Source of the DNA: a virus
Lineage: Duplodnaviria; Heunggongvirae; Uroviricota; Caudoviricetes
Direction: 5' to 3' (one strand)
Length of the DNA: 64,000 bases
IMG/VR virus record: IMGVR_UViG_3300035660_000003
Location: 22,261 to 86,260 of that record
In this document: one piece after another, positions 21,803-34,116 of the stretch
Position numbering within the stretch: position 1 is the stretch's first letter
How the letters are laid out: each line of letters begins with the position of its first letter
The notes under the pieces: model-generated
Database searches by the model: none
Told to the model about the DNA's origin: nothing
What the model saw: only the letters and a program-made list of their open reading frames with translations
Translations under genes and position numbers: made by a program

Positions 21803-22038
21803 GTCACTCCGATTAAGACAAATAAGGCAAACTCGATTATGCCTAAGCCAATTAGAAAGTTTCTCAAATCATTTCCACTCATAAATTGAACCACTCTACG
21901 ACCAAAATTATCACGTTTCCACAATTCGTGTTTACGTTCTGGTTTGCGTTCTCGACACGTTTTACACAGCAAACCTTCACCTATGAACATTGAACCACAA
22001 CTAAAGCATGGGTGTGGAATATCGGTTTTCTCGCTCAA
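21793..22038 (-). CDS. small CxxC + C-terminal TM protein
   Basis: 81 aa, overlaps ATPase start. Confidence 0.5.
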   Translation of the reverse strand: MSEKTDIPHPCFSCGSMFIGEGLLCKTCRERKPERKHELWKRDNFGRRVVQFMSGNDLRNFLIGLGIIEFALFVLIGVTCL

Positions 22039-22177
22039 TCTAGTTTCACTCTTTGTTAATACTGATATGCACTCCGTTCCTTATAAAGTTTTGCCAAACC
22101 GAAGCATAATTTTCCATAAAAAAATTGCAATTGCTTTGACCAGAACTACTGCACGGAGAGCCAAATTTTTGAAATAA

Positions 22178-22193
22178 TTAATCAATTGATTAA
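22178..22193. repeat. 16-bp palindrome TTAATCAATTGATTAA
   Basis: exact match. Confidence 0.95.
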
Positions 22194-22359
22194 TCTTTCC
22201 GATTTTTTGCCCAAGCTCAAAATTCAGGAGTTTATTACGAACCGTTTGCCAAAAGAACCTTAAATTAAGTTAATTCAAAATCTTGGAAGCGTCGCCGAGT
22301 CATCCAACCGTTACTCGGACACCAAGTTTCTCTCCGTTTTGAGAACCCTTTTTTAAAAC

Positions 22360-22375
22360 TTAATCAACTGATTAA
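22360..22375. repeat. palindrome variant TTAATCAACTGATTAA
   Basis: central AACT. Confidence 0.9.
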
Positions 22376-22444
22376 ACATTTCCCAACCCCCGTCTTCGCT
22401 TTGACACAACGCCCGTCTTCGTTTTGAAACTCCCCACTTAAAAC

Positions 22445-22460
22445 TTAATCAGTTGATTAA
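22445..22460. repeat. palindrome variant TTAATCAGTTGATTAA
   Basis: central AGTT. Confidence 0.9.
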
Positions 22461-22536
22461 ACGAACCATTATAAAAATTTCGCATTACCTTAGAAAACTT
22501 TAACAAAAACGCTAAGATTCTAAGAAAAAAATAAAA

Positions 22537-22905
22537 TCATAGTTTAATTAATGCGTTTATTTGAGAATCAGATAAAGTTAATAATCCGTGTTTTGTTCTA
22601 TGACATATTCTACATAAACAAACAAAATCTTCAACGTGTTTAAGAATATAACTAGAATTCGTTGGATGTTTTGTGAGTTTAATATTGTGATATTGAACGT
22701 CTTTTTTAGAACCGCACACCTTACAAGAATCCCCTAACAATTCAATGACTTTTTGTTTTGTTTTATAGCGTTTGTTTGCCTCTCTGATAAGATTTTTCGT
22801 TCTATATTTCCAATAACTTTTATGAGCCATTAATCTACATTTTTTTCTGTTTCTGGCATAATATTTTTGCTGAGACTTTCGCCTTTTATCTGAGGTTTTA
22901 AACAT
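22537..22905 (-). CDS. HNH endonuclease-like, K/Y-rich N-terminus
   Basis: CKVCGS...YHNIKLTKH...LCRICHRTKH. Confidence 0.7.
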   Translation of the reverse strand: MFKTSDKRRKSQQKYYARNRKKCRLMAHKSYWKYRTKNLIREANKRYKTKQKVIELLGDSCKVCGSKKDVQYHNIKLTKHPTNSSYILKHVEDFVCLCRICHRTKHGLLTLSDSQINALIKL

Positions 22906-23285
22906 TTTTACCCGTAAAAGAAAAAAGACTTTAAGTATATAAGTTTTATGGTTAATGATATTTGAGTAGGTTTATAACAGCATCAATTACCATTATCCAC
23001 AGCAAAATCATAACAATAGTCACGAGCATTGAAACAGCATTCACGCAAACTTGCGAATATAAATCCTCGAACATGCTTTTACCTTACGTAATCCTTAGTT
23101 TTTTTAGTGCGGTCAATTTTATAGGTTTCAATGGCTTTTAGCATTTCCTCACGACTTATCGGTTTTCCATGTTTTTGGGTTTCGCAACCCTCACAATCTT
23201 CCTCACATTCTGCCATTTTAATTCCTTAATTAACAATAGGTTAATCTCTCTTATAAACCTTCTCTATATAATCTATCTATCTAAA

Positions 23286-23301
23286 TTAATCAATTGATTA
23301 A
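23286..23301. repeat. 16-bp palindrome TTAATCAATTGATTAA
   Basis: exact match. Confidence 0.95.
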
Positions 23302-23538
23302 TCTTTTAGTTTCGGACAACCAGCCTACTTCATAGTTCAAATCGCCTCGAAAAACACCGAAAACCCGAAAACAAGCCCAAATCTCTGTCACCTAAGCCCA
23401 CCGCCCAACCTGTGCCTTAAAAATGCCCGAATTTCCCCGAATAGGCTTAATTTAGCCTCTTTTTTCAAAATAAGGAAAAATGAGTCAATTCTTTTTGTCG
23501 CACGAAGGGTGTCAGCCTAGCCGCTCCCATGAAAATGA

Positions 23539-23554
23539 TTAATCAATTGATTAA
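23539..23554. repeat. 16-bp palindrome TTAATCAATTGATTAA
   Basis: exact match. Confidence 0.95.
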
Positions 23555-23584
23555 ACGCCAGACTGCGGGAAATCAAGATTTTAC

Positions 23585-23600
23585 TTAATCAATTGATTAA
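23585..23600. repeat. 16-bp palindrome TTAATCAATTGATTAA
   Basis: exact match. Confidence 0.95.
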
Positions 23601-23760
23601 ACTGCCGAAACCATTAGTGCAACCAAAAATGTAATAATAGATGGCACTATGCCACATAGCCGCACATAGAGCCAAAAAATTCAGAAAGAATAATTTAGAA
23701 AATAAAAAAGGAGTTTATTTGTCGGCTTTTATTTAGAATTATTTGCTTTCTTTCAAATGT

Positions 23761-23815
23761 TGTATTTAAAAAGGCTAAAGTAAACCTGCTAAGATTGAAA
23801 GGCTAAAGTAAACCT
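23761..23815. repeat. tandem direct repeat, 2 x ~27 bp (aaggctaaagtaaacctgctaagattg)
   Basis: two adjacent exact copies. Confidence 0.8.
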
Positions 23816-23848
23816 GCTAAGATTGATTAGACCAATTGAAATTATAGC

Positions 23849-23902
23849 CTATTTAAAAAGTCGGAATTTCAAAGGGGTGGGGGGTATTTAAAAACTGGAG
23901 GA
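23849..23902 (-). promoter_or_regulatory. two tandem consensus promoters flanking a G-run
   Basis: ctatttaaaaagtcgg and gtatttaaaaactggagg. Confidence 0.4.
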
Positions 23903-24169
23903 GTCTTTGAATTCGTATTTGTATTGTGGTTCGTTGATTCGTTTACAAATCGCTATATGGTCTAAATAATATTTCGGCAAAATGTGGCATCCACAATACG
24001 GACATTCGATTCGACTTTCCTTCTGAAATGCTAAGAATTCGTCTGCCATCTCTTGCGGTTTTAGATAAGGTTTTTTGTTGTCTAAACGCCATTGACGAAA
24101 TTCGTTTTCATCAACAGTAACGCCTTTTTCCCGAAGAATTTTCAAAGCCCGTCTTTCATCTTGGTTCAA
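23888..24169 (-). CDS. small Zn-finger protein
   Basis: CPYCGC...HIAIC. Confidence 0.55.
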   Translation of the reverse strand: MNQDERRALKILREKGVTVDENEFRQWRLDNKKPYLKPQEMADEFLAFQKESRIECPYCGCHILPKYYLDHIAICKRINEPQYKYEFKDSSSF

Positions 24170-24182
24170 TATTCATCTTCCT

Positions 24183-24746
24183 CTAACTCTTATGACATTC
24201 AATGATTAATTTTTGTAGTTTCTCATATTTTAAAACTCGGTGTAATGTTCTATGGCAAAGGGAACACAATGGAATAAAATCTTCAACATGATTAAGAATA
24301 TACCAATATGATGTTGTATGTATCTTACCATGAATTTCGTGATATTCTACATTATCCATTCTTCCGCAAGTTTTACATCTATCTCCAATTAATTGAATAA
24401 TTTTAGCCTTTTTAATAGAACTCAATTCTTTATGTCGTAAAAGTCTTTCTTTTCTGTGTTGTTGATAATATTTCTTTCTTCTCCCCCTAATTTGTTCTTT
24501 ATGAATTTGGTAATATCTTTTATCGTATTTTTTTATTTGTTCTGGATGTTCTTGGCAGTATTTTCTACCATATTCTTTTCTCTGTTTTTTATGTAATTGA
24601 TAATATTCTTTTCCGTGTTTTTGAATCTGCTCTTTATGTAAAGAACGGTATTTTCTACTATATCCTCTACATTGTTCTTTATGCATTTCACGGTATTTCT
24701 TATTAAATTCTTTCATATATTTTTTTCTATCAGTCGTCATTTTCAC
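24183..24746 (-). CDS. HNH endonuclease-like with six ~11-aa KxYxxxHKEQ repeats
   Basis: CKTCGR...YHEIHGKIH...LCSLCHRTLH. Confidence 0.7.
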   Translation of the reverse strand: MKMTTDRKKYMKEFNKKYREMHKEQCRGYSRKYRSLHKEQIQKHGKEYYQLHKKQRKEYGRKYCQEHPEQIKKYDKRYYQIHKEQIRGRRKKYYQQHRKERLLRHKELSSIKKAKIIQLIGDRCKTCGRMDNVEYHEIHGKIHTTSYWYILNHVEDFIPLCSLCHRTLHRVLKYEKLQKLIIECHKS

Positions 24747-24896
24747 CTTTTCCTTTGTTAAATCTTAAACATTCTTCTTTATTGCAAATGTTACCTGTTT
24801 CTGAACAATAGCAAACTTTATCTTCGCCTTTAACGTGAAACTTACACGTTCGTTCATATTGTGTGAAACTAATTGGTTTCGGTTTCTTTTCTGGCA

Positions 24897-25094
24897 TTAT
24901 TTCACCTCTACCGTATTAAAGGGAGTTGTTAAAAGAGCCATTGGTTTTCCGATTTCGCCCTTCCATCCACAATTTTTGCATTCCGCACCGAAATCGGTTC
25001 GTATTTCGCCTTTTTTGACATCTCTAACCTTAATTTTTTTGGCGAGTTTCACAGTATAAGCAAGATTTGGATTCCCACATTTAGGACACTTCAT
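24897..25094 (-). CDS. small Zn-ribbon protein
   Basis: CPKCGN...CKNCGW. Confidence 0.55.
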   Translation of the reverse strand: MKCPKCGNPNLAYTVKLAKKIKVRDVKKGEIRTDFGAECKNCGWKGEIGKPMALLTTPFNTVEVK

Positions 25095-25309
25095 GCTTCA
25101 TCTTCCTCGAATCGCTTTAGAATGTTGCCCTTTTCGTCAATTAATCCCATTTTAATGAGGTTTGAGGCTGTTCGCCCGTAAACGCCCTGTAAATGCCAAC
25201 ACAAGCCATCTTTAATTAATTCGGCGAAAAAGTCAAGCACCTCATTTCCATCCATCTCGCCCGATTCAAACCTTATGAATTTATCGACTCTATCGGTTCT
25301 TTCTGACAC
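25091..25309 (-). CDS. hypothetical small protein
   Basis: 72 aa, ATGA overlap. Confidence 0.5.
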   Translation of the reverse strand: MSERTDRVDKFIRFESGEMDGNEVLDFFAELIKDGLCWHLQGVYGRTASNLIKMGLIDEKGNILKRFEEDEA

Positions 25310-25320
25310 CGTTCATTTCC

Positions 25321-25632
25321 TCAATCATTTGAATTTAACGTTCCGTGAGGGCATTCGTAAGTTTTGTATTTCTCTCTAGTTTCTACAACGTCTTCTTTGA
25401 TTCTAAACCATATATATTGTAACCATTCTGTGAACCATGCCCTAATTCTCCAATAGATTTCTCTAAGTTTCGAAATTCGTGTGTTTAGATAGTTTTCGTA
25501 ACTCTTACAATCACAAGCATATGCACATCTCTTGCAAAAGTCAGTCTTAACAGTTTCTCCAATCGGACATTCAATTCGTTCTCTGAGTCTGATAAATTTC
25601 GACATTTTTCTTACCTTACTAGATAACAACAA
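25321..25632 (-). CDS. hypothetical Cys-rich protein
   Basis: 103 aa; promoter 25636-25652. Confidence 0.55.
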   Translation of the reverse strand: MLLSSKVRKMSKFIRLRERIECPIGETVKTDFCKRCAYACDCKSYENYLNTRISKLREIYWRIRAWFTEWLQYIWFRIKEDVVETREKYKTYECPHGTLNSND

Positions 25633-25635
25633 CTT

Positions 25636-25652
25636 CGCCTCTTATAAGGGTT
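25636..25652 (-). promoter_or_regulatory. BRE/TATA promoter (cgcctcttataagggtt)
   Basis: same 17-mer as 32461; upstream of 25632 start. Confidence 0.5.
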
Positions 25653-26637
25653 TCTGATTTTTAGGTTCACTTGTTTCTTTCGGTATTAGTTTCACAAAAC
25701 CATCTTTGGTTATTTCGTATCCGAGATAATGTGCATTGAATCTACAAAGTCTGCACTTTAGGATTCGGAAGAAATTCAGTATTGCACCTTGTTTTGCAGA
25801 AGGAACGTCCATCTTGATTGTGCCATCCCATGAAGAGATTTTCTTGTAATCCAGAACGAAAACCGCATCGACAATATGCGAAATCGAAATTCCGCCAGCC
25901 ATTGCAAGAGTATCGCTTTCCTCTATGGCTCTTTGGTTTACTAGAATTGAAGTTATTCCGTGAATCTGGTTGTATCGCATTAATTCAAGAACACGATATT
26001 TGATTTGACCTCGCACATCTTCTAAGAGCGTCATTGAATCAACAAGTAACAAGTCTATTCCTTCGCCTTCAGCTAGACTTCTGTATGTTGAAACGAAGGC
26101 ATTCCACTCTCTCAATTCTGCAAACATCACGGTATCGATTACTGAGAGATTTTTGCTGATGTTTTCCCAATTTAGACCTAGAATCTTTGCTCTTTCTCGG
26201 AATCTTGATTCTAAATCGAATCGTGGCGTTTCTGTTTTCCACGCCTCTTCACTTGTCACAAAGCAAACTTTCTTCCCACTATCAGCTACTCGGAGAGCAA
26301 TTTCTTCTATCAAGAGGCTTTTTCCCGAATTTGGCAAACCTGTTAAAATGCTATTTGAGCCGAAAGGAATTCCTTCTATTGGCTTATCGTTCGAATCGAG
26401 AAACATCATATCGAGAAAACTGAAAGTTTTGAACGGTGATAATTCTTTCTTGTTTTCTTCGCCCACAGTTGGCTTAACAACTTTCTGGCTTTTTGCTTGC
26501 TCCATTTTTTGAGCGAACGGAGCATTAACACTAGCCCATTCATTTTGTGTAGCATTAGCCAAAACAAGTTTAACTGCCTCAGCTATTGCTTTAGCGGTTT
26601 CTTGAACGCTTTTTTCCTTATCTTTTTCTTCGGACAT
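25642..26637 (-). CDS. RecA-superfamily ATPase (KaiC/RadA-like)
   Basis: Walker A GLPNSGKSLL, Walker B IDLLLVDSMT. Confidence 0.7.
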   Translation of the reverse strand: MSEEKDKEKSVQETAKAIAEAVKLVLANATQNEWASVNAPFAQKMEQAKSQKVVKPTVGEENKKELSPFKTFSFLDMMFLDSNDKPIEGIPFGSNSILTGLPNSGKSLLIEEIALRVADSGKKVCFVTSEEAWKTETPRFDLESRFRERAKILGLNWENISKNLSVIDTVMFAELREWNAFVSTYRSLAEGEGIDLLLVDSMTLLEDVRGQIKYRVLELMRYNQIHGITSILVNQRAIEESDTLAMAGGISISHIVDAVFVLDYKKISSWDGTIKMDVPSAKQGAILNFFRILKCRLCRFNAHYLGYEITKDGFVKLIPKETSEPKNQKPL

Positions 26638-26817
26638 TTAATCACCTAATTTCGTGTTGGCAAAGAATATGAATGCTCCATAGAGAATTGCGGGTGTATT
26701 CTGTGCAAACAAACCTGCCAAAGCGGTTACTAATCCGAATATCTTTCCGAGCATTTTGAGTGTTTTAACCGTTTTATTTTCGGACATTTTTTATCCCTTT
26801 ACAATTACTAATAACTT

Positions 26818-26837
26818 CGTCTTATATAAACCTTTGC
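26818..26837 (-). promoter_or_regulatory. BRE/TATA promoter
   Basis: cgtcttatataaacctttgc. Confidence 0.45.
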
Positions 26838-26838
26838 A

Positions 26839-27126
26839 CTATATGAGCATCACCTTAATATTGTAATGGGGAATTTTTTCCTTCATAAACACATCAAAGA
26901 ATAAATCAAACCACGCTTTTTCCCATTCTTTTTTTCCGTAACTCTCAAATTTTTTACCCTCTAAATTACTCCATGCTTGATAACATTTACAACAAAGAAA
27001 AATATCAATTTCTACTCGTTTATCATCAAATTGATTTTTCCGTGCGAAAAATGACATTTGTTCATCATTAGTTTTTCCACATCTATAACAAATTTCATTT
27101 TTATATAAAGGTTTTATAAGTTTCAT
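26839..27126 (-). CDS. KVKV-tail family Zn-ribbon protein (NIKVMLI)
   Basis: CxxC pairs. Confidence 0.6.
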   Translation of the reverse strand: MKLIKPLYKNEICYRCGKTNDEQMSFFARKNQFDDKRVEIDIFLCCKCYQAWSNLEGKKFESYGKKEWEKAWFDLFFDVFMKEKIPHYNIKVMLI

Positions 27127-27428
27127 ATGAGTATCACTTTCACTTTTGGGGGTTTTACACCCATAAATTCAGCAAAAACTTCGTGCCAAATTTCATCCTC
27201 AAGCGAGAAATATGGTTTTTTATGTGATTGTCCTTGTCTGGATTGACATCTAACTACCACTTTAGAATACCATTTATCCCATTCAGAATGACATTCTTCA
27301 CAAAGCAAATATTTACTCATATCATAATTATGAGTTCCCTCTCCAATTCCACATCTGTCACATTTCTTTAATTTTTGCTTTTTCATTCTTTCGCAATCTC
27401 CATCACGAAAGAAGTGTGTTCTCGGCAT
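27123..27428 (-). CDS. KVKV-tail family Zn-ribbon protein (KVKVILI)
   Basis: CxxC pairs; ATGA overlap. Confidence 0.65.
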   Translation of the reverse strand: MPRTHFFRDGDCERMKKQKLKKCDRCGIGEGTHNYDMSKYLLCEECHSEWDKWYSKVVVRCQSRQGQSHKKPYFSLEDEIWHEVFAEFMGVKPPKVKVILI

Positions 27429-28048
27429 TTTACTTTAAGCCAGCAAATACTTCTAGTATCTGGCTCATAAACGCTGTTGATTTGTTTGAGAACTACGCCC
27501 TCAAATCCGTTTTCTTTCGCCCATTCATACATTTTTCGGTTTTCAGTTGTTTGAGGGATTATCCTAATATTTGTAAAACCGTAAAGTTGGTTCTGTAAAT
27601 TGACAAAGTTTTCCAGAATTTTGCGTCTTTTCCAATACGGCACTTTCGTTAAATCCACGCCATCTAACATCATTATATCCCAAACGTAAAGACCTACGGG
27701 ATAAATATCTTTGTATTTATCAATTTTTTCTTTGGCGGAAATTTGGCATCTAAACTGTGAACCAGCAAAAACCATGTGACCGTTTTTGTCAATGTAAACG
27801 ACTTCGCCATCCAAACGATAATCATGTTTCATTGTTCTAAGCGGTTCTACGATTTCTGGCAAAGTTTCGTTATAGGCAAGCCCTCTACGACTATAAATCC
27901 GAAAATCCTCGCCCATCTTTTCGATTATTACTCTTGTGCCATCAACTTTTAATTCAGCCACATAATCTTTTCTGTCTAAGTCGTTCTGTGAACCCGTTTC
28001 GCACAATTCTGGCTCAAACCACTCTTCTAGTTTAATTTTCAATCCCAT
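27383..28048 (-). CDS. minimal ATP-dependent DNA ligase-like nucleotidyltransferase (NTase domain only)
   Basis: motif I KVDGTR, III LDGEVV, IV DIMMLDG, V EGVVLK, WLKVK; 221 aa, no OB domain. Confidence 0.65.
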   Translation of the reverse strand: MGLKIKLEEWFEPELCETGSQNDLDRKDYVAELKVDGTRVIIEKMGEDFRIYSRRGLAYNETLPEIVEPLRTMKHDYRLDGEVVYIDKNGHMVFAGSQFRCQISAKEKIDKYKDIYPVGLYVWDIMMLDGVDLTKVPYWKRRKILENFVNLQNQLYGFTNIRIIPQTTENRKMYEWAKENGFEGVVLKQINSVYEPDTRSICWLKVKCREHTSFVMEIAKE

Positions 28049-28093
28049 CTTCTTACCTAAGATATGTAAGGGTTATCCTTCTTAAAAACGTTT

Positions 28094-28471
28094 CTATTGT
28101 TTTAAAATATTTTGTTTTAAAGGTTGAACCAAATCATTCCATTTCGATTCGTTTATTTTTATTAAGAACAAATAATGATGAATGGTTCTATGACATTTAT
28201 GGCATAATGGAACGAAATCTTGATAATGTTTTAGAATATAATAGGGATGCGTGTCATGGGGTTTGCCGTGAATTTCGTGGTAAATTATTTTCTGTGGATT
28301 AGAATTACACAAAATGCATATTTTACCAATCAGAGCAAAAAGTTCCTTCCTAATTCGTTCATCACGCTTTTTTTGATATTCTATCATGGATACTGAACGG
28401 GATTTCCATTTATCGGGGTTTCGTTTATAATAATCTTTCATGTATTTTCGTTGATATTCTTTTCTGTCCAT
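28094..28471 (-). CDS. HNH endonuclease-like, K/Y-rich N-terminus
   Basis: CILCNS...YHEIHGKPH...LCHKCHRTIH. Confidence 0.7.
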   Translation of the reverse strand: MDRKEYQRKYMKDYYKRNPDKWKSRSVSMIEYQKKRDERIRKELFALIGKICILCNSNPQKIIYHEIHGKPHDTHPYYILKHYQDFVPLCHKCHRTIHHYLFLIKINESKWNDLVQPLKQNILKQ

Positions 28472-28503
28472 TTTTAAGTCTCTTTAACAAAATAAAGCCC
28501 AAT

Positions 28504-28523
28504 CCGCTATTTAAATTTTATGC
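28504..28523 (-). promoter_or_regulatory. BRE/TATA promoter for HNH gene
   Basis: ccgctatttaaattttatgc ~40 nt upstream of 28471. Confidence 0.5.
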
Positions 28524-28587
28524 TTATTGGTTGGATAATCCAACCAGTCAAGTCCATCGGCGAATCCATCGTCCAGAAGTGAAAAGA

Positions 28588-28603
28588 TTAATCAATTGAT
28601 TAA
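28588..28603. repeat. 16-bp palindrome TTAATCAATTGATTAA
   Basis: exact; 115 nt upstream of HNH gene. Confidence 0.95.
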
Positions 28604-28736
28604 TTCGTCCCCATTTTGGAACAATTGAATTTTTGAAAAATTCTGCGGGACCGATTATAACCTCTCTAAAAAGTTGGGATTGTAAAAGGGCGGGGGGCGT
28701 TCGCTAGAGTTTATAAATGTTCGCTCTTAACGAAAC

Positions 28737-29006
28737 TTAGATAAGAATAACTTTAACTATTTCCTTTTCTTCTTTCCATTTTAGATAAGTCTCAAACAAC
28801 TTATATGGATTGATTGACCTACACCATTTAGAATGATATTCAAACCACTTTTTGCAACAAATAGAACAAAGAAGATTTTCAATGTGTCTTTTATCAAATT
28901 TAGGATTAGTGCGAAATTCCTTTCCACATTTCAAGCATTTTACTTTCTTCTTTAAATGCGTCAAACCAGAATCACCTTGATTTTCTGTTTGAAACGGATT
29001 TTGCAT
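28737..29006 (-). CDS. KVKV-tail family Zn-ribbon protein (IVKVILI)
   Basis: CxxC pairs. Confidence 0.6.
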   Translation of the reverse strand: MQNPFQTENQGDSGLTHLKKKVKCLKCGKEFRTNPKFDKRHIENLLCSICCKKWFEYHSKWCRSINPYKLFETYLKWKEEKEIVKVILI

Positions 29007-29085
29007 CCATCTTTATGAGGGCAATGTTCACAATATTGAAACTCATTGCAATCTTTGACCTCATGTGTTATAATATTTACAAGTC

Positions 29086-29307
29086 TCAAATTAATATCAC
29101 TTTTATTTTCTCTTTCTGTTTTTTATGAACCTCAATCTCAGAACGGTTTTTAGTTTTAGCCTTTCGAAGTAATCTGTTTGCTTCCACTCTCCACCTTTCG
29201 TATAATAGATTAAAGGATATTTCTTGTTCTTTAATGAACTTTTCTGCCTCATTGGTTGCACTTTCGACAAATAACTTATCAATTAGCCATCTTATAGGAT
29301 TTTTCAT
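29086..29307 (-). CDS. KVKV-tail family protein (KIKVILI)
   Basis: 73 aa. Confidence 0.6.
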   Translation of the reverse strand: MKNPIRWLIDKLFVESATNEAEKFIKEQEISFNLLYERWRVEANRLLRKAKTKNRSEIEVHKKQKEKIKVILI

Positions 29308-29516
29308 ATTAATATCACTTTAATTTTGGATGGTTTCGTTCTGACAAATTTCAAAAATAGTTTAGTCCATTCCGCTCCGTTTGAACCTTTCGGATAAGTG
29401 GCGTGATAAATTTTCACCCATAATCTTACACATTTTATGCAAAGTTTAACATAGTTTGTTCCATCCATTAAATCAAAACCCGTAAATTCTTCCTTTGAAT
29501 CGCATCTGTCACACAT
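29304..29516 (-). CDS. KVKV-tail family Zn-ribbon protein (KIKVILI)
   Basis: first gene; TATA 29543-29556 then palindrome. Confidence 0.65.
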   Translation of the reverse strand: MCDRCDSKEEFTGFDLMDGTNYVKLCIKCVRLWVKIYHATYPKGSNGAEWTKLFLKFVRTKPSKIKVILI

Positions 29517-29542
29517 TTTAATTCATTATTATAGATAGTTTT

Positions 29543-29556
29543 GGCTCTTATAAACG
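29543..29556 (-). promoter_or_regulatory. TATA box of array C
   Basis: ggctcttataaacg; palindrome 8 bp upstream. Confidence 0.5.
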
Positions 29557-29562
29557 TATCGT

Positions 29563-29578
29563 TTAATCAATTGATTAA
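29563..29578. repeat. 16-bp palindrome TTAATCAATTGATTAA
   Basis: exact; 8 bp from TATA box of array C. Confidence 0.95.
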
Positions 29579-29818
29579 GTTTTCCAATTTAATTTTCCAT
29601 AATCGAGAATAAAACTTTTCGCCTTTCTTTCGGCAAAATCACGGAACTTTTAATGAAAACTTACCGAGTTCGAACAACTTTATTTGGCATTATGAAAAAA
29701 CTTAATGAGTATGGGAAAAGCACGGATAATTCATTAATATTTTTCCCTTAATGCCAAATAATTTCGTTCGCTAATCTTCGAATGACACACCAATGATGCC
29801 CAAATTCATAAGATAAGA

Positions 29819-29834
29819 TTAATCAGTTGATTAA
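29819..29834. repeat. palindrome variant TTAATCAGTTGATTAA
   Basis: central AGTT. Confidence 0.9.
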
Positions 29835-29880
29835 TCTTTCCAGACAACGTAACGCTTGGCAGATTCGATTGGTCGCAAAA

Positions 29881-30138
29881 TTAATATAATGGAACTTTAA
29901 CTTTTAAATCGACTGGGATAATCCAAAATAATTCATAGGGAATCGTAAGAAATTTAAGTTTTGCGATTAAAATCCCCCCATGGGTCCTACATAGGAAACT
30001 TTCGTGCCCTTTAAAAACTATTTTAAATTTTACTTTTTCTGGAAAAAGAAATTTGTGCTTTAAACATTCCTCACATTTTGGAAATTTCAAATTAGTTTCA
30101 CCTTTATTTTGGGTTTTCTTCCAGAAAGTTTTTTCCAT
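29881..30138 (-). CDS. KVKV-tail family protein (KVKVPLY)
   Basis: CxxC; array D. Confidence 0.55.
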   Translation of the reverse strand: MEKTFWKKTQNKGETNLKFPKCEECLKHKFLFPEKVKFKIVFKGHESFLCRTHGGILIAKLKFLTIPYELFWIIPVDLKVKVPLY

Positions 30139-30452
30139 AGGTCTAAATATGGAGTATCATAAATTAGGTTGTCGATTTGCTCGGCGATTTCTGGATGGTA
30201 GGGGACTTCCTCTATCCATCCTCTATGTAACGACACTTCTTTCGTGAGGTTATTATAGAAAGATGATTTGCCATGAAATAAAATTTTACAAACCTTAATT
30301 ATATATCCGAAAACGCCACCTGTTGGATAATAATCTTTGACTGTTCCAACAACTACGAAATCAATTTTTGTGCCACCAATTTTTTCCGTAGTCACTCCTA
30401 TGACTGTTTCGCCACGTTTATATTTCGGTTTGTCTGGTTCAAGAAAAGCCAT
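30087..30452 (-). CDS. KVKV-tail family protein without Zn ribbon (KIKVKLI)
   Basis: 121 aa. Confidence 0.55.
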   Translation of the reverse strand: MAFLEPDKPKYKRGETVIGVTTEKIGGTKIDFVVVGTVKDYYPTGGVFGYIIKVCKILFHGKSSFYNNLTKEVSLHRGWIEEVPYHPEIAEQIDNLIYDTPYLDLWKKLSGRKPKIKVKLI

Positions 30453-30730
30453 TAGACCAACATCACCTTCACTTTCTCATCATGTTTAAAGAAAATATCG
30501 AAGAAAACATGAACCCAAAATTCACCATAAGTCTGAAAGGTTGGATATTTATAATTTTTGAGTTGTTTATTTTTCAATTCTTCAAAAATCGTATAGCAAT
30601 TTTGACAGCACCAAAAATCTCTTTTATATCGATTAATTGAATTATCTTTACCAAGCATTAATTGAGAATAACTTCCTAGCGAACCACCACATTTACAGCA
30701 TTTATCGGAGTTCATATGAGAAAATTTCAA
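30452..30730 (-). CDS. KVKV-tail family Zn-ribbon protein (KVKVMLV)
   Basis: CxxC pairs. Confidence 0.65.
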   Translation of the reverse strand: MKFSHMNSDKCCKCGGSLGSYSQLMLGKDNSINRYKRDFWCCQNCYTIFEELKNKQLKNYKYPTFQTYGEFWVHVFFDIFFKHDEKVKVMLV

Positions 30731-30987
30731 ACTAACATCACCTTAACTTTTGGTTTTCGTGAATGCCAAAGTTCACGGATTTCAAGCCATAACTTATTAG
30801 CAAATTTCTCAAGACAAATATCGTGGTAACTGGGATAACCACGTCTTCTCAATTCATCATCCAAAAATTTGCTCCATTTCATTGCACAATCGCTACAAAT
30901 TAATAAAATGTGTTTATCTCCCAAAGTTTTTCCCTGTTCAAGAAGTCCAATCGATTCTTTTCCACAATGTTCACATTCATATTTCAT
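30727..30987 (-). CDS. KVKV-tail family Zn-ribbon protein (KVKVMLV)
   Basis: CxxC pairs; overlaps. Confidence 0.65.
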   Translation of the reverse strand: MKYECEHCGKESIGLLEQGKTLGDKHILLICSDCAMKWSKFLDDELRRRGYPSYHDICLEKFANKLWLEIRELWHSRKPKVKVMLV

Positions 30988-31316
30988 ATTAGAATCACCT
31001 TTACCTTTACCGAATTCAAAAAGGTTAGAAATTCATCTTCGAACTTTTCTTCATAACCCCTATAATATTTCCCCCTATGATTTTGATTATCTACTCTTTC
31101 ACGCCAAATTTTAGCCCATTTCTTGTGACAATCTTCACAAAGCTGATAACTTCGGTGTTCAAGAGTCGCAGTTATAGATGTTGAGGCTTTATTTTTTTGA
31201 CACCGTTCACATTTGCCCCATCCAACTTTTATTTTAACTAAGTTTGTTTGTTGAGTCAATATAAAGCCACTCTCACTTTTTCTTTTTGCGGTGTCACGTC
31301 GAAATGACTTACCCAA
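30984..31316 (-). CDS. KVKV-tail family Zn-ribbon protein (KVKVILI)
   Basis: CxxC pairs. Confidence 0.65.
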   Translation of the reverse strand: MGKSFRRDTAKRKSESGFILTQQTNLVKIKVGWGKCERCQKNKASTSITATLEHRSYQLCEDCHKKWAKIWRERVDNQNHRGKYYRGYEEKFEDEFLTFLNSVKVKVILI

Positions 31317-31465
31317 AAATTGTATATGAGATACCTAACCATGACATCTCCACTTTCATATTTTATTACGATTATCTCGAATGTTGAATTTTTGGGAATC
31401 CACGACGGAATTACTTTAGGTTTTAATTTGACGAGCATTCCCAATTTTAGATTTTCTATCTCCAT
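31256..31465 (-). CDS. KVKV-tail family protein (KVRVALY)
   Basis: 69 aa. Confidence 0.5.
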   Translation of the reverse strand: MEIENLKLGMLVKLKPKVIPSWIPKNSTFEIIVIKYESGDVMVRYLIYNFWVSHFDVTPQKEKVRVALY

Positions 31466-31553
31466 TAGTTATCAAATAGAATATAACAACCGTATCTTAT
31501 AAACTTTTCCAAAATAAAAAAGGGGGTTGATGGCGTGATGGTTGGTTGGTAGT

Positions 31554-32441
31554 TTATGGCGTTATGATTTCAAAGAACGGTATTGGCACATCGCTACCGT
31601 AGAAGTATGGCAATGCTCCATCCCATTTTAACAGATAGAGATAATAGAGATAGTTCGGGTTCACGCTTAGATATTCATTTATCATGCGGATTGCTTCTGC
31701 GTCTGCTTGAGCCCTCGTTAAGGTTGAGTTTGCATATGCTTCGGCTTGTATCTTCATGATTGTTGCTTCGGCTTGCTTAATCATTATTTGTTGTTCTTGC
31801 TGATAGCGGATTACTTCTAGTTTATTCTTTTCAGCTAGAGCATTCTGTTCATTTGTTACTTTATTTTCAATTGCTTGATTAAATGCTGGCGAGAATTCAA
31901 AGTTTTCTAGCTGAACATCAAGAACTGTTATATGATATGGAGTAAGTTTTTCTCTCAAAGTTTCCAGAAACAGAAGTTTAACAGCCTCACGCCTCTGAAG
32001 TAATTCCTCAGCTTTGAAGCTAGAAGTTGCACCCTTTAAACTCTGTTGCATGTTGTTTATGATAACTCGACTTTCCCAATCGGTTCTCAATGTTCGGTAA
32101 ATTTCTTCCACGTAGCCCGAATCTATATAATAGTTTATTGAGATTGTCGTCAGCACCTCTTGCATATCATTTGTTCCACACGACAGATTTCCTAAAGTGA
32201 CTTTGTGAATCTGCACATCCATGAGAACTATGTCCTGACCAAGCCACATATTTACCCAATGAAGTCCTTCGGTTGCAGTTCCCGTGATTTGACCGAATTG
32301 TGTCGTGACACCAATATAACCACTCGGCACAGTTCGTAATCCTAAAAGCATCGTCGCAACTAAGACCACTATAACTGCCATGATTGCAACTAATTTCCAA
32401 ATGCTCCAATTGCCGTCTTTATTCTTTAATGGATTTCTCAT
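31554..32441 (-). CDS. SPFH/band-7 (prohibitin/stomatin-like) protein
   Basis: N-terminal TM, band-7 core, AEA-rich coiled coil; promoter plus palindrome directly upstream. Confidence 0.75.
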   Translation of the reverse strand: MRNPLKNKDGNWSIWKLVAIMAVIVVLVATMLLGLRTVPSGYIGVTTQFGQITGTATEGLHWVNMWLGQDIVLMDVQIHKVTLGNLSCGTNDMQEVLTTISINYYIDSGYVEEIYRTLRTDWESRVIINNMQQSLKGATSSFKAEELLQRREAVKLLFLETLREKLTPYHITVLDVQLENFEFSPAFNQAIENKVTNEQNALAEKNKLEVIRYQQEQQIMIKQAEATIMKIQAEAYANSTLTRAQADAEAIRMINEYLSVNPNYLYYLYLLKWDGALPYFYGSDVPIPFFEIITP

Positions 32442-32460
32442 TTTTTACGACCTTAAAGAG

Positions 32461-32480
32461 TAATACACATCGCCTCTTAT
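32461..32480 (-). promoter_or_regulatory. BRE/TATA promoter of SPFH gene
   Basis: cgcctcttataagggttgac; palindrome 8 bp upstream. Confidence 0.5.
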
Positions 32481-32481
32481 A

Positions 32482-32497
32482 AGGGTTGACATTAATC
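32482..32497. repeat. 16-bp palindrome TTAATCAATTGATTAA
   Basis: exact; 8 bp from SPFH TATA box. Confidence 0.95.
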
Positions 32498-32586
32498 AAT
32501 TGATTAATTATTTTAGTTTTGGAGCGGGTCATCGGAAGAAGTGGGGAAGAAGCGATGGTTCAGAGTGCACTACAAATTTAGAAAGA

Positions 32587-32602
32587 TTAATCAACTGATT
32601 AA
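32587..32602. repeat. palindrome variant TTAATCAACTGATTAA
   Basis: central AACT. Confidence 0.9.
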
Positions 32603-32652
32603 TTTTCTCGAATCAGAAGGAGAACATTGGGCAGGCGAGACGTTGCCTTCGG

Positions 32653-32865
32653 TCAATATAAAATGACCTTGACTTTTTCTTTCCGTTTTTTCTCTTTCGC
32701 CAATAAATGAATAATGACAGTTTTTTGATAAGGATTAAGTTTCATACCATTTGCGTGTTCTAGTAAGTGTTCATAAAATTCCATTTGGATGACAATTTCA
32801 TTCGTATGATGAAGAGTTGCACCTTTAAATTCGACCATGCAAAAAGGTTTTGGTTTTTCCGTCAA
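32653..32865 (-). CDS. KVKV-tail family protein (KVKVILY), array-terminal
   Basis: tail kept although no downstream gene and SD degenerated to AAGGTCAT. Confidence 0.6.
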   Translation of the reverse strand: MTEKPKPFCMVEFKGATLHHTNEIVIQMEFYEHLLEHANGMKLNPYQKTVIIHLLAKEKKRKEKVKVILY

Positions 32866-33080
32866 TATAATAGCACCTTTACTTTGATTTTTGATTTCTT
32901 CTTTGAGAATGATTGAGGAAAGAAACTTTGATAAATTTTATCTGGAATGAGGTAACATCCCTTAAATTTTGCATCCTTCATACCCTTTACAACATCCTCT
33001 AAAGTGATTTTGGATTTACTCATATCAGTATCACTTTCACTTTCTCGCCCTTTAGCCATAGATTGAAAATCTTTAACCAA
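32862..33080 (-). CDS. KVKV-tail family protein (KIKVKVLLY)
   Basis: 72 aa. Confidence 0.55.
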   Translation of the reverse strand: MVKDFQSMAKGRESESDTDMSKSKITLEDVVKGMKDAKFKGCYLIPDKIYQSFFPQSFSKKKSKIKVKVLLY

Positions 33081-33268
33081 ACTTTTCCTTGCTCATCATA
33101 AGAAGGAATACTATTACTCTTCGGTTTTAAATGTTTATGCAAAAACGCAACCCAATCTGCTCTACATTTTGGACAGACTCTCAAAAGTGGTTCGTTATCC
33201 GACGAGAATGCTCCACCTAAACCGATTAGGGAAGTTACCCAATTTCCACATCTTTGGCATTTTCTCAT
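33020..33268 (-). CDS. KVKV-tail family Zn-ribbon protein (KVKVILI)
   Basis: CxxC pairs. Confidence 0.6.
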   Translation of the reverse strand: MRKCQRCGNWVTSLIGLGGAFSSDNEPLLRVCPKCRADWVAFLHKHLKPKSNSIPSYDEQGKVWLKIFNLWLKGEKVKVILI

Positions 33269-33504
33269 ATAAGCATCACCTTAACCTTTCTCTCCCGTAA
33301 AATCGTCCCAACTCCGCATACATAAGTTAGATTAGGTCTATGTTTGTCACAATAGCAAGACTTTCTACCCTGCCTCTGGCAACTGCCTCGATGCGAACAC
33401 ATGAATATCAAACCACATTTTTGACAAACTGAAGGTTCATCTGGATAGATATTCTTCGTCGGAATATGAACATTCAATGAAGAGTCTTTATATATTGGTG
33501 TCAT
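33265..33504 (-). CDS. KVKV-tail family Cys-rich protein (KVKVMLI)
   Basis: Cys-rich. Confidence 0.6.
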   Translation of the reverse strand: MTPIYKDSSLNVHIPTKNIYPDEPSVCQKCGLIFMCSHRGSCQRQGRKSCYCDKHRPNLTYVCGVGTILRERKVKVMLI

Positions 33505-34021: not shown

Positions 34022-34060
34022 AGTTTTTCTTATCCCTTTAAAGTAATTAAAGTTATTACC

Positions 34061-34077
34061 CACTTATAAACTTTGTG
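34061..34077 (-). promoter_or_regulatory. TATA box of array E
   Basis: cacttataaactttgtg. Confidence 0.45.
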
Positions 34078-34096
34078 AATTATTTTTGGCTCGTGT

Positions 34097-34112
34097 TTAA
34101 TCAACTGATTAA
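34097..34112. repeat. palindrome variant TTAATCAACTGATTAA
   Basis: upstream of array E promoter. Confidence 0.9.
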
Positions 34113-34116
34113 TCTT

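What the first reader, a model, noticed from the sequence alone, without database searches (positions are those of the whole stretch)
27383..28048. 221-aa ligase-like nucleotidyltransferase domain only, no OB fold
Motifs I (KVDGTR), III (LDGEVV), IV (DIMMLDG) and V (EGVVLK) are all present, plus WLKVK. The ORF ends 660 nt after its start and is overlapped by the next small gene, so no OB domain can be appended. An NTase-only ligase or capping-like enzyme of this size is unusual.
Basis: partly seen in the sequence, partly recalled or inferred. Interest (0 to 1): 0.55.

Follow-up and report, generated by a model that had tools for sequence, protein, structure and literature searches.

The report
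DNA ligase lacking its OB domain
This gene encodes only the catalytic half of a DNA ligase; it is a conserved, selected protein family in archaeal virus-like elements, which is below the two-domain minimum thought necessary for DNA joining.

Summary
Window 27383..28048 (minus strand) encodes a 221-aa protein that is the nucleotidyltransferase (NTase) domain of an ATP-dependent DNA ligase and nothing else (Pfam PF01068, E 1.5e-39; AlphaFold pLDDT 91.9; best structural matches are archaeal DNA ligases). [quoted passage not shown] The OB domain and motif VI are absent.

It is not a frameshift or fragment:
- At least 17 metagenomic homologues (42-89% identity) are all 219-233 aa and form one clade.
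- dN/dS is 0.10-0.19.
- Some alleles carry a LAGLIDADG intein, and the extein is again about 225 aa.
- An OB profile that detects 61 of 62 control ligase loci finds nothing in the window or in 19 family loci.

The family differs from its two-domain relatives in three ways: a 12-residue N-terminal K-x-K-L-x-x-aromatic-aromatic extension, a C-terminal R209/H211 pair just after motif V, and relaxed constraint at several otherwise invariant positions. It is consistently linked to a KaiC/RadA-paralogue-like ATPase.

My best reading is a working adenylyltransferase and DNA-joining subunit that relies on a partner in trans. That part is inferred, not shown. I rate it a new variant of a known kind, of moderate to high interest.

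The parts
27383..28048 (-). 221-aa ORF: stand-alone nucleotidyltransferase (adenylation) domain of an ATP-dependent DNA ligase; no OB domain and no motif VI
   Evidence: ORF. Pfam PF01068 E 1.5e-39. AF2 pLDDT 91.9. Foldseek top hits are Thermococcus/Pyrococcus DNA ligase NTase domains, E 1e-18. The family is 219-233 aa.
28013..28048 (-). Family-specific N-terminal extension MGLKIKLEEWFE, containing the K-x-K-L-x-x-[FWY]-[FWY] motif. The motif resembles a PIP box, or it may be a structural strand.
   Evidence: The motif is present in 13/17 family members, in 1/258 other homologues, and in 0.6% of shuffles. 95/113 OB-containing relatives have 3 or fewer residues before the equivalent of P13. The PIP definition is from PMC6881253.
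27932..27949 (-). Motif I, KVDGTR (K34 is the predicted AMP-accepting lysine)
   Evidence: K34 and D36 are invariant in 17/17 family members; R39 is kept in only 9/17.
27797..27814 (-). Motif III, LDGEVV (E82)
   Evidence: E82 is kept in 16/17 members and D80 in only 9/17, against 110/113 in relatives.
27758..27763 (-). G96|S97: the position where homologues carry a 355-356-aa LAGLIDADG intein
   Evidence: P0007, L014, L016, L017, L018 and L081 carry the insert. The L016 extein is 100% identical to the intein-free allele L007. Pfam LAGLIDADG_3 and Intein_splicing match the insert.
27659..27682 (-).
   Evidence: The aromatic residue at 123 and D124 are invariant in the family.
27485..27502 (-).
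   Evidence: E183 and G184 are invariant. K188 is kept in 10/17 family members against 113/113 relatives.
27428..27442 (-). Motif V, WLKVK (K205, K207)
   Evidence: Both lysines are invariant in the family and in the relatives.
27413..27427 (-). Family-specific segment CREHT immediately after motif V. R209 and H211 extend the K205-x-K207 pattern to K-x-K-x-R-x-H. The 2-domain relatives have N-W-[RK] here.
   Evidence: R209 is R in 16/17 family members and 0/113 relatives. H211 is H in 17/17 against 14/113.
27123..27386 (-). Downstream 87-aa zinc-ribbon gene whose ATG overlaps the ligase stop (ATGA). It occupies the DNA where an OB domain would have to be. It is not conserved next to the ligase in other loci.
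   Evidence: No Pfam family. L001 has a different small gene at this position.
25642..26637 (-). 331-aa KaiC/RadA-paralogue-like RecA-fold ATPase, the one conserved neighbour of the OB-less ligase
   Evidence: Pfam PF06745 1e-18. NCBIfam thermo_KaiC_2 5e-31. The profile hits PH0284, FlaH, SSO2452, RecA and KaiC in the PDB. It lies beside the ligase in 14/19 family loci and 0/62 control loci, with gene order varying.

Best explanation
The gene encodes a functional, OB-less descendant of the minimal (about 290-aa, NTase plus OB) ATP-dependent DNA ligases of archaea and their viruses.

Shown:
- It is a complete, well-folded adenylation domain with the lysine nucleophile and the AMP-binding and metal-binding residues intact.
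- It belongs to a monophyletic family that lost the OB domain once and has kept the truncated form under purifying selection.
- It sits on archaeal virus-like or plasmid-like elements.

Inferred mechanism:
1. K34 is adenylylated by ATP.
2. The pyrophosphate-orienting role of the missing motif VI is taken over, at least partly, by the family-specific R209/H211 that directly follow the motif V lysines, and/or by a partner protein.
3. The DNA-clamping role of the OB domain is supplied in trans. The most likely provider is the co-inherited KaiC/RadA-paralogue-like ATPase. Host PCNA, bound through the PIP-like N-terminal peptide, is an alternative.
4. The enzyme then transfers AMP to a 5'-phosphate and seals nicks during replication, recombination or repair of the element.
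For: Domain identity and fold:
- Pfam, PHROG and PDB hits.
- AF2 pLDDT 91.9, with only residues 212-221 uncertain.
- Foldseek aligns 217 of 221 residues to archaeal ligase NTase domains.

Not an artefact:
- 17 homologues of 219-233 aa at 42-89% identity.
- One clade in an NJ tree, with 2-domain ligases of 292-300 aa as the sister group.
- dN/dS 0.10-0.19 in six pairs whose dS is not saturated.
- The intein-bearing and intein-free alleles share the same extein. Inteins typically sit in conserved sites of important enzymes (general knowledge).

Catalytic residues are kept in 16-17 of 17 members: K34, D36, R54, E82, F94, D124, E183, G184, K205 and K207. The motif I Asp is needed for the steps after adenylylation in other ligases (PMC1807946), so its invariance argues for more than self-adenylylation.

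The OB domain is truly absent. The 81-sequence OB HMM gives no hit in six frames of the window or in 86 kb of family loci, but hits 61 of 62 control loci. Pfam scans of about 70 window ORFs found no OB, SSB or PCNA.

The partner: the KaiC-like ATPase is adjacent in 14/19 family loci despite 43-60% divergence and inverted gene order. It is absent from all 62 loci of 2-domain relatives.

Family-specific gains: R209 and H211 and the N-terminal extension.

Precedents from the literature:
- TbREL1 receives its OB fold in trans from KREPA2 (PMC4366279).
- PCNA rescues a ligase that cannot bind DNA (PMC5407892).
- An isolated NTase domain suffices for phosphodiester formation at a pre-adenylylated nick, and T4 Rnl2 self-adenylylates without its C-terminal domain (PMC1807946).
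- In the Mtu-LigD-ATP-metal structure, motif VI makes no direct contact with ATP (PMC7470946).
Against: - No biochemical data exist for any member.
- For ATP-dependent DNA ligases the OB domain is reported to be required for step 1 adenylylation (PMC1807946, PMC4609770), and NTase plus OB is regarded as the minimal scaffold (PMC7470946).
- Several positions that are invariant in 113 two-domain relatives are relaxed in the family: motif I Arg 9/17, motif III Asp 9/17, motif IV Lys 10/17, R62 0/17 and W203 8/17. This could mean a changed activity rather than classic nick sealing. The window protein itself keeps R39, D80 and K188.
- Linkage to the ATPase could be inherited synteny rather than a physical partnership.
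- The N-terminal peptide has pLDDT about 84 and aligns structurally to full-length ligases. It may therefore be a packed structural strand, not a free PIP box.
Confidence: 0.5

Rival explanations
1. Split ligase. The OB domain with motif VI is encoded as a separate polypeptide elsewhere in the element or by the host, and it assembles with this NTase subunit. Trypanosome REL1 works this way, receiving its OB fold from KREPA2.
For: The REL1/KREPA2 precedent (PMC4366279). Only 64 kb of the window and 10-kb flanks of a related 96-kb contig could be examined. Purifying selection on the catalytic residues fits a catalytic subunit that needs a helper.
Against: No ligase-type OB domain was found in any frame of the window or in 86 kb of 19 family loci, using a profile that detects 61 of 62 control loci. 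No small gene is conserved next to the ligase across loci. No Pfam OB or SSB family was found among about 70 ORFs. A highly divergent OB fold would escape these sequence searches.
Confidence: 0.15
2. Neofunctionalised NTase. The protein is no longer a classic DNA nick-sealing ligase. It may perform a partial or different nucleotidyl-transfer reaction: sealing or resolving pre-adenylylated ends, RNA or DNA-RNA joining, use of a different nucleotide, or AMP transfer to another acceptor. It might work with the KaiC-like ATPase.
For: Constraint is relaxed in the family at residues that contact the ribose (motif I Arg) and adenine N1 (motif IV Lys), and at the motif III Asp. R62 and W203, both invariant in relatives, are lost (residue roles from PMC6698739). 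Isolated NTase domains retain step 3 activity (PMC1807946). There is a secondary Pfam RNA_ligase hit of 3.6e-10.
Against: The window protein itself has all canonical residues. The metal-binding motif I Asp and both motif V lysines are invariant. The family nests inside DNA ligases, not RNA ligases. The element already has a separate RNA-ligase-like gene at 57186..58079. PADLOC gave no hit.
Confidence: 0.2
3. Non-functional remnant or artefact: a truncated pseudogene, a sequencing frameshift, or a gene fragment.
For: Many other short hits in the protein databases do look like fragments that stop inside the OB domain. One family member (L003) has E82G and a G37D change.
Against: Length is conserved at 219-233 aa in 17 members from independent samples. 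dN/dS is 0.10-0.19. The catalytic residues are invariant, the intein exteins have the same length, and the fold is predicted with confidence. The downstream DNA encodes an unrelated zinc-ribbon gene coupled by ATGA.
Confidence: 0.03
4. mRNA capping-type guanylyltransferase domain.
For: A weak Pfam mRNA_cap_enzyme hit (E 1.9e-4, residues 21-91).
Against: The hit is below Pfam's gathering score (21.7 against 29.6 bits) and covers only the motif I region. The DNA ligase model scores 136 bits. All structural neighbours are DNA ligases. Capping enzymes also need the OB domain (PMC1807946).
Confidence: 0.02

Closest known systems
Minimal two-domain ATP-dependent DNA ligases: the uncultured archaeal and viral relatives of about 290 aa (e.g. 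P0011, P0018, and clusters named Bathyarchaeia or Micrarchaeaceae ligase), plus the characterised Chlorella virus ligase, Lig E and Lig C
   Same: [quoted passage not shown] Identity is 30-41% over residues 13-210 and the fold is the same.
   Different: These ligases all carry a C-terminal OB domain with motif VI (PF04679), which is absent here. The family adds a 12-aa N-terminal extension. It replaces the N-W-[RK] linker with [CAIV]-R-[ED]-H-[TS]. It has also lost constraint at R62 and W203, and partly at R39, D80 and K188.
Archaeal replicative DNA ligases (Thermococcus, Pyrococcus, Archaeoglobus, Sulfolobus; PDB 9dfa, 2cfm, 3rr5, 4eq5, 3gde, 2hiv)
   Same: These are the best sequence and structure matches for the adenylation domain: E about 1e-21, and TM 0.77 normalised to the query.
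   Different: They are three-domain enzymes of about 560 aa (DBD, NTase, OB, plus a C-terminal helix). The window protein corresponds only to their residues about 245-435.
Trypanosome RNA-editing ligases REL1/REL2 with KREPA2/KREPA1
   Same: A ligase that has the catalytic domain but no OB fold and depends on a partner protein (PMC4366279).
   Different: REL1 is an Rnl2-type RNA ligase with its own C-terminal domain, and its partner supplies an identifiable OB fold. Here the enzyme is DNA-ligase-type, has no C-terminal domain, and no OB partner was found. The conserved neighbour is a RecA-fold ATPase.
Isolated NTase domains made in the laboratory: T4 Rnl2(1-249) and DraRnl N-delta-126
   Same: A single adenylyltransferase domain of similar size. 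These constructs show which reactions such a domain can do alone: step 3 sealing, and for Rnl2 also self-adenylylation (PMC1807946).
   Different: Those are engineered truncations of RNA ligases with impaired overall ligation. This is a natural family derived from DNA ligases and maintained by selection.
Ligases assisted by a sliding clamp: human LIG1 with its N-terminal PIP, T4 ligase with its clamp, and Entamoeba LigI lacking its DBD, which PCNA rescues
   Same: An N-terminal peptide K-x-K-L-x-x-[FWY]-[FWY]-x-P that resembles Qxx[LIVM]xx[FY][FY] (PMC6881253). There is also the concept that a ring can make up for a missing DNA-binding module (PMC5407892).
   Different: The binding is untested. 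Position 1 is K rather than Q. The peptide is modelled with fairly high confidence as part of the domain. No PCNA gene is present in the window.

Membership tests
ATP-dependent DNA ligase (covalent nucleotidyltransferase superfamily) | Adenylation (NTase) domain matching PF01068 and adopting the ligase NTase fold | tested here: met
   PF01068 E 1.5e-39 over model positions 17-204 of 204. AF2 pLDDT 91.9. Foldseek E 1e-18 to archaeal DNA ligases.
ATP-dependent DNA ligase (covalent nucleotidyltransferase superfamily) | Motif I KxDGxR with the lysine nucleophile | tested here: met
   K34-V-D-G-T-R39. K34 and D36 are invariant in the family.
ATP-dependent DNA ligase (covalent nucleotidyltransferase superfamily) | Motifs III, IIIa, IV and V | tested here: met
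   LDGEVV, WDIMMLDG, EGVVLK and WLKVK are all present. E82, D124, E183, G184, K205 and K207 are conserved.
ATP-dependent DNA ligase (covalent nucleotidyltransferase superfamily) | C-terminal OB-fold domain carrying motif VI (RxDK); NTase plus OB is the accepted minimal scaffold | tested here: not met
   The protein ends 14 residues after motif V. The OB HMM finds nothing in six frames of the window or in the family loci, while the positive control detects 61 of 62 loci. NCBIfam full-length ligase models all score below their cut-offs.
ATP-dependent DNA ligase (covalent nucleotidyltransferase superfamily) | ATP-dependent self-adenylylation and sealing of 3'-OH/5'-PO4 nicks | not testable with these tools
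   This needs a biochemical assay.
RNA ligase (Rnl2/Rnl3-type, PF09414) | Best profile match to RNA ligase models, and a family-specific C-terminal (or N-terminal) accessory domain | tested here: not met
   PF09414 scores 3.6e-10, 96 bits weaker than the DNA ligase model. PHROG RNA ligase scores 0.013. No accessory domain is present. All near relatives are DNA ligases.
mRNA capping enzyme (GTase) | PF01331 above threshold, plus the OB domain | tested here: not met
   21.7 bits against a cut-off of 29.6, and only residues 21-91 match. No OB domain.
OB-in-trans ligase systems (REL1/KREPA2 type) | A separately encoded OB-fold partner associated with the ligase | tested here: inconclusive
   No ligase-type OB domain in 150 kb of window plus family loci and no conserved small neighbour. 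Complete genomes were not available, and a divergent OB fold would be missed.
PCNA-interacting proteins (PIP box) | Qxx[LIVM]xx[FY][FY] in a flexible terminus that binds PCNA | tested here: inconclusive
   K-x-K-L-x-x-[FWY]-[FWY] lies at residues 4-11 in 13/17 members. Position 1 is tolerant (PMC6881253). However, pLDDT is about 84, so the peptide may be packed against the domain. Binding is not testable here.
Intein-containing host protein (for the homologues P0007, L014, L016-L018, L081) | An insert that starts with Cys, ends in Asn followed by a Ser/Cys/Thr nucleophile, contains a homing endonuclease, and leaves an in-frame extein | tested here: met
   The insert is C...GN|S, 355-356 aa. 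Pfam LAGLIDADG_3 and Intein_splicing match it. The L016 extein is 100% identical to the intein-free allele L007. The window copy has no intein.

The most novel reading that the evidence does not exclude
The 221-aa protein may be a genuinely autonomous single-domain DNA ligase, the smallest known. In this reading a K205-x-K207-x-R209-x-H211 basic ladder replaces motif VI for ATP/PPi positioning. A ring protein (the co-inherited KaiC-like ATPase hexamer, or PCNA bound through the N-terminal PIP-like peptide) replaces the OB domain for encircling DNA. That would redefine the minimal ligase scaffold and reveal a new ligase-ATPase repair or recombination module in archaeal mobile elements.
Probability: 0.2. 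Interest if true: 0.8.

Novelty: new variant of a known kind. Interest (0 to 1): 0.6.

Why it matters
Textbook and review accounts treat NTase plus OB as the irreducible core of every DNA ligase. The OB domain is held to be needed both for enzyme adenylylation (motif VI) and for gripping the nick. A natural, selected family that has dispensed with the OB domain makes two questions directly testable: which of these roles are truly indispensable, and how they can be replaced, whether by a short basic tail, a clamp, or an ATPase partner.

If the protein is active, a 25-kDa ligase core would also interest enzyme engineers. The tight linkage with a KaiC/RadA-paralogue ATPase would point to an undescribed DNA-joining module in archaeal viruses or plasmids.

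If it turns out to be a step-restricted or repurposed NTase, it would be a new branch of the covalent nucleotidyltransferase superfamily.

Tried and rejected
- **Frameshift or truncated gene: rejected.** Six-frame OB HMM search, conserved length and dN/dS.
- **OB domain encoded nearby: not found.** Checked the window and 19 family loci with a positive control, and ran Pfam on about 70 ORFs.
- **Conserved small partner gene: none.** The zinc-ribbon genes downstream differ between loci.
- **Other short (185-246 aa) database hits as independent NTase-only lineages: rejected.** Most end inside the OB domain and look like fragments.
- **Known defence system: no PADLOC hit for the ligase**.
- **Relatives in isolated phages or BFVD:** only 2-domain ligases at under 30% identity, apart from one 224-aa uncultured-phage entry that was not followed up. 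IMG/VR has no family member.
- **Net charge or pI as a sign of compensatory DNA binding: not discriminating.** The family core has a median charge of +3 against 0 in relatives, and the window protein is -2.
- **Borg-like element: not supported.** Few tandem repeats.
- **Unavailable resources.** The afdb50 fold library was not available. The key Sriskanda and Shuman papers (PMC147904, PMC100343, PMC3436572) are not held, so their content is cited only through secondary papers. One literature search was wasted on word-start matching.
- **Model coordinates are not exposed.** The spatial position of R209/H211 and of the N-terminal peptide could not be measured.
Full report
**1. The observation**

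The window carries an ORF at 27383..28048 on the minus strand, with an ATG start, 221 codons and a TGA stop. Its translation contains KVDGTR (residues 34-39), LDGEVV (79-84), WDIMMLDG (123-130), EGVVLK (183-188) and WLKVK (203-207). I verified the coordinates by translation.

Profile searches leave no doubt about the domain:
- Pfam DNA_ligase_A_M, E 1.5e-39, covering model positions 17-204 of 204.
- RNA_ligase is much weaker (3.6e-10), and mRNA_cap_enzyme is below its threshold.
- PHROG 114 (ATP-dependent DNA ligase), 6.7e-30.
- The best solved structures are the adenylation domains of Thermococcus, Pyrococcus and Archaeoglobus ligases, at about 1e-21.

An AlphaFold2 model built on a 119-sequence alignment has mean pLDDT 91.9, and only residues 212-221 are uncertain. 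Foldseek aligns 217 of the 221 residues to archaeal DNA ligase NTase domains, with E 1e-18 and TM about 0.78 normalised to the query.

The protein therefore has the complete NTase motif set and lacks only motif VI, which lies in the OB domain.

**2. Is the truncation real?**

Four lines of evidence say yes.

First, the DNA after the stop codon is occupied by another gene. The ligase TGA overlaps an ATG (ATGA, preceded by GGAG) that opens an 87-aa CxxC...CxxC protein.

Second, I built an HMM from the OB tails of 81 two-domain relatives. It finds nothing (best E 2.5) in any of the six frames of the window and nothing in 86 kb of 19 related loci. The same HMM detects the OB domain in 61 of 62 loci that encode more distant two-domain ligases.

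Third, homologues have the same size:
- The word-indexed search gave five clusters of 220-223 aa at 51-99% identity.
- The exhaustive representative search added members of 226-228 aa and one of 578 aa.
- A metagenome scan gave 18 loci whose stop-to-stop frames all close within 8-25 residues of motif V.
- A curated set of 17 full-length members spans 219-233 aa and is monophyletic in an NJ tree, with 2-domain ligases of 292-300 aa as sister.

Fourth, selection is purifying. dN/dS is 0.10-0.19 in the six pairs whose synonymous divergence is not saturated.

Other short proteins in the hit list (185-246 aa) mostly stop inside an OB domain. They look like fragments rather than additional OB-less lineages.

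**3. Inteins**

P0007 (578 aa) and the loci L014, L016, L017, L018 and L081 carry a 355-356-aa insertion between the equivalents of G96 and S97. The insertion begins with Cys, ends in Gly-Asn followed by Ser, and contains LAGLIDADG motifs.

Removing it from L016 yields a 228-aa extein that is 100% identical to the intein-free allele in L007. The exteins are therefore also OB-less. It is general knowledge that inteins persist at conserved sites of important enzymes, so the presence of a homing intein is indirect support that the protein matters to its element.

**4. How the family differs from its two-domain relatives** (17 family members against 113 relatives)

Retained in 16-17 of 17 members: K34 and D36 (motif I), R54, E82 (motif III), F94, Q98, R100, D124 (IIIa), R141, E183 and G184 (IV), Y194, and K205 and K207 (V). 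R199 is retained in 15 of 17.

Relaxed or lost:

| Position | Family | Relatives |
|---|---|---|
| R39 (motif I Arg) | 9/17 | 97/100 |
| R62 | 0/17 | 113/113 |
| D80 (motif III Asp) | 9/17 | 110/113 |
| K188 (motif IV Lys) | 10/17 | 113/113 |
| W203 | 8/17 | 113/113 |

Gained:
- The linker N208-W209-[RK] of the relatives is replaced by [CAIV]-R209-[ED]-H211-[TS]. R209 is R in 16/17 family members and 0/113 relatives. H211 is H in 17/17 against 14/113.
- There is a 12-residue N-terminal extension, whereas 95/113 relatives have 3 or fewer residues before the equivalent of P13.
- The extension carries K-x-K-L-x-x-[FWY]-[FWY], usually followed by x-P. The strict pattern occurs in 13/17 members, in 1/258 other homologues, and in 0.6% of shuffled N-termini.

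The window protein itself keeps the canonical R39, D80 and K188.

According to PMC6698739, the motif I Arg and motif III acidic residue contact the ribose hydroxyls, the motif IV Lys contacts adenine N1, and the motif V Lys contacts the alpha-phosphate. According to PMC1807946, the motif I Asp is needed for steps after adenylylation. Its invariance here argues that the family does more than bind or self-attach AMP.

**5. Genomic context**

The window is AT-rich (30-39% GC), and from about 7.8 kb onward almost all genes lie on the minus strand.

Recognisable genes:
- a KaiC-like ATPase
- a MoxR-type AAA protein plus a VWA protein
- a Topo VI-A/Spo11-like Toprim protein
- an archaeal/eukaryotic-type ribosomal protein uL16 homologue
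- an RNA-ligase-like protein
- two DruA-like proteins
- SPFH, papain-like and trypsin-like proteins, and sugar-modifying enzymes
- a 1232-aa protein with weak virion and tail PHROG hits

No PCNA, SSB/OB, polymerase or clear capsid gene was detected.

Archaeal affiliation rests on four points: the best ligase matches are archaeal; named relatives come from Bathyarchaeia and Micrarchaeaceae; the window encodes uL16, Topo VI-A and KaiC-type genes; and one family locus lies in an "uncultured archaeon" MAG. I could not settle whether the element is a virus or a plasmid. IMG/VR holds no family member.

The only neighbour conserved with the ligase is the KaiC-like ATPase (25642..26637):
- It lies next to the ligase or within a few small genes of it in the window, in the P0003 contigs, and in 14 of 19 family loci.
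- The gene order is ligase then ATPase in some loci and ATPase then ligase in others.
- It is absent from all 62 loci of two-domain relatives.
- A profile of the ATPase matches PH0284, FlaH, the Sulfolobus RadA paralogue SSO2452, RecA and KaiC.

**6. Mechanism**

Shown: the protein is an intact, selected adenylation domain without an OB domain.

Inferred: it still performs nucleotidyl transfer on polynucleotide ends. The literature says three things. For ATP-dependent DNA ligases the OB domain is needed for step 1 (PMC1807946, PMC4609770). NTase plus OB is the minimal scaffold (PMC7470946). An isolated adenylyltransferase domain suffices for phosphodiester formation at a pre-adenylylated nick, and T4 Rnl2 can self-adenylylate without its C-terminal domain (PMC1807946). 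In addition, in the Mtu-LigD-ATP-metal complex motif VI does not touch ATP (PMC7470946).

I therefore propose two substitutions:
- The family-specific R209/H211, spaced i+2 and i+4 after the two motif V lysines, help position the ATP phosphates in place of motif VI.
- DNA engagement is supplied in trans, most plausibly by the co-inherited RecA-fold ATPase. PCNA, bound through the PIP-like N-terminus, is the alternative.

Precedents are REL1 with KREPA2 (PMC4366279) and PCNA rescue of a ligase lacking its DNA-binding domain (PMC5407892).

Caveats:
- The N-terminal peptide is modelled with pLDDT about 84 and aligns structurally with the DBD-NTase linker of large ligases. It may simply be a structural strand.
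- The relaxed positions in part of the family allow a changed activity.

I put about 0.5 on a functional DNA-joining or adenylyltransferase subunit with a trans partner, 0.15 on a split ligase with an undetected OB protein, 0.2 on a repurposed NTase, and under 0.05 on an artefact or remnant.

**7. Comparison with known systems, and novelty**

The protein works like, and descends from, minimal ATP-dependent DNA ligases. It fails one defining feature of that family, the OB domain with motif VI. I therefore file it as a new variant rather than a member in good standing.

Neither the literature searches nor the fold and sequence searches against the PDB, BFVD and isolated phages turned up a described natural OB-less DNA-ligase-type family. 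A 224-aa BFVD entry from an uncultured phage was seen but not examined.

Interest is moderate to high. A specialist would be surprised by a conserved single-domain DNA-ligase homologue, and it makes the necessity of the OB domain directly testable. However, activity is unproven.

**8. Things noticed in passing**

These are listed separately. The most striking is that 32 small genes end in the same K-[VI]-K-V-x-L-[IV] peptide. The cause is that the Shine-Dalgarno sequence, spacer and start codon of the next gene (AAGGTGAT, then 5 nt, then xTGA) are read in the upstream frame. Related lineages use a different tail, E-[KR]-[IV]-[IV]-F-T or E-K-V-L-L-T.

Noticed in passing
window 17325..20287, 27123..27428, 28961..31316, 32653..34063, 36263..36670, 48151..50726 (minus strand): 32 small genes, many of them CxxC zinc-ribbon proteins, end in the same peptide K-[VI]-K-V-[IMLV]-L-[IV]. 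The DNA consensus is AAAGTnAAGGTGATnnTAAT(A/T)TGA: a Shine-Dalgarno-like AGGTGAT, a 5-nt spacer, and a start codon overlapping the stop (29 of 32). The translational-coupling signal of the next gene therefore dictates the C-terminus of each protein. Related loci use other tails (E-[KR]-[IV]-[IV]-F-T in L014/L016, E-K-V-L-L-T in L011).
   Followed up: partly
window 51444..52073 (-): A 209-aa homologue of archaeal/eukaryotic ribosomal protein uL16 (L10e) is encoded on the element (NCBIfam PRK04199 1e-36, above its cut-off; Pfam Ribosomal_L16 8.6e-20).
   Followed up: partly
window 57186..58079 (-): A second ligase-superfamily gene: a 297-aa RNA-ligase-like protein (Pfam PF09414 3.7e-11; PHROG 548). 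Its relation to the OB-less DNA ligase homologue is unknown.
   Followed up: no
homologues P0007, L014:2516-4270, L016:1267-3021, L017, L018, L081; intein-free allele L007:434-1120: A LAGLIDADG intein of 355-356 aa is inserted at F-x-G|S-Q of the ligase in some alleles. L007 is the intein-free allele, with an extein 100% identical to that of L016. This is a presence/absence polymorphism typical of active homing.
   Followed up: yes
window 47333..48154 (-) and 49392..50060 (-): Two paralogous proteins match Druantia DruA / DUF4338 (Pfam 4e-15 and 3.5e-22; PADLOC DruA 1e-7). They sit on a mobile element rather than in a host defence island.
   Followed up: no
window 52592..54208 (-): A 538-aa protein with a Topo VI subunit A / Spo11 Toprim domain (Pfam 8.3e-9; NCBIfam 1.2e-7, far below the cut-off). 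No Topo VI-B partner was seen among the ORFs scanned.
   Followed up: no
window 1..9941 versus 9938..64000: Strand switch. Genes at 17..7230 are on the plus strand and nearly everything from about 7.8 kb onward is on the minus strand. Cumulative GC skew peaks at 6-8 kb. This may be a replication origin or terminus, or a divergent transcription point. The intervening 7.3-9.4 kb has only tiny ORFs.
   Followed up: no
window 24183..24746 (-), 28094..28471 (-), 20459..20944 (+), 9444..9941 (+), 54448..54954 (-): A paralogous set of proteins with basic, repeat-rich N-termini (KxYxxKxxEQ...; a 45-bp tandem repeat at 24493..24641) and C-terminal 'HEIHGK...CxxCH' HNH-like motifs. Pfam did not match the two that were scanned individually (24183..24746 and 28094..28471). 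One lies immediately upstream of the ligase.
   Followed up: no
window 45184..45639 (-) and 37994..38524 (-): Probable free-standing homing endonucleases: a LAGLIDADG-type protein (motif YIAGLFDGEGN) and an HNH_3-type protein. The assignment to these two ORFs is by eye, from the pooled Pfam result.
   Followed up: no
window 20936..21802 (-); L003, L012, L014, L016: A 288-aa P-loop protein (weak nSTAND3 and PADLOC mad8 hits) is conserved a few kb from the ligase-ATPase pair in several related loci, preceded by a small membrane-like protein (21793..22038).
   Followed up: no
BFVD entry A0A6J7XMV1 (uncultured Caudovirales phage, 224 aa): A short 'DNA ligase' of 224 aa appears among the structural matches (TM 0.58/0.57). 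It could be another OB-less ligase or a fragment.
   Followed up: no
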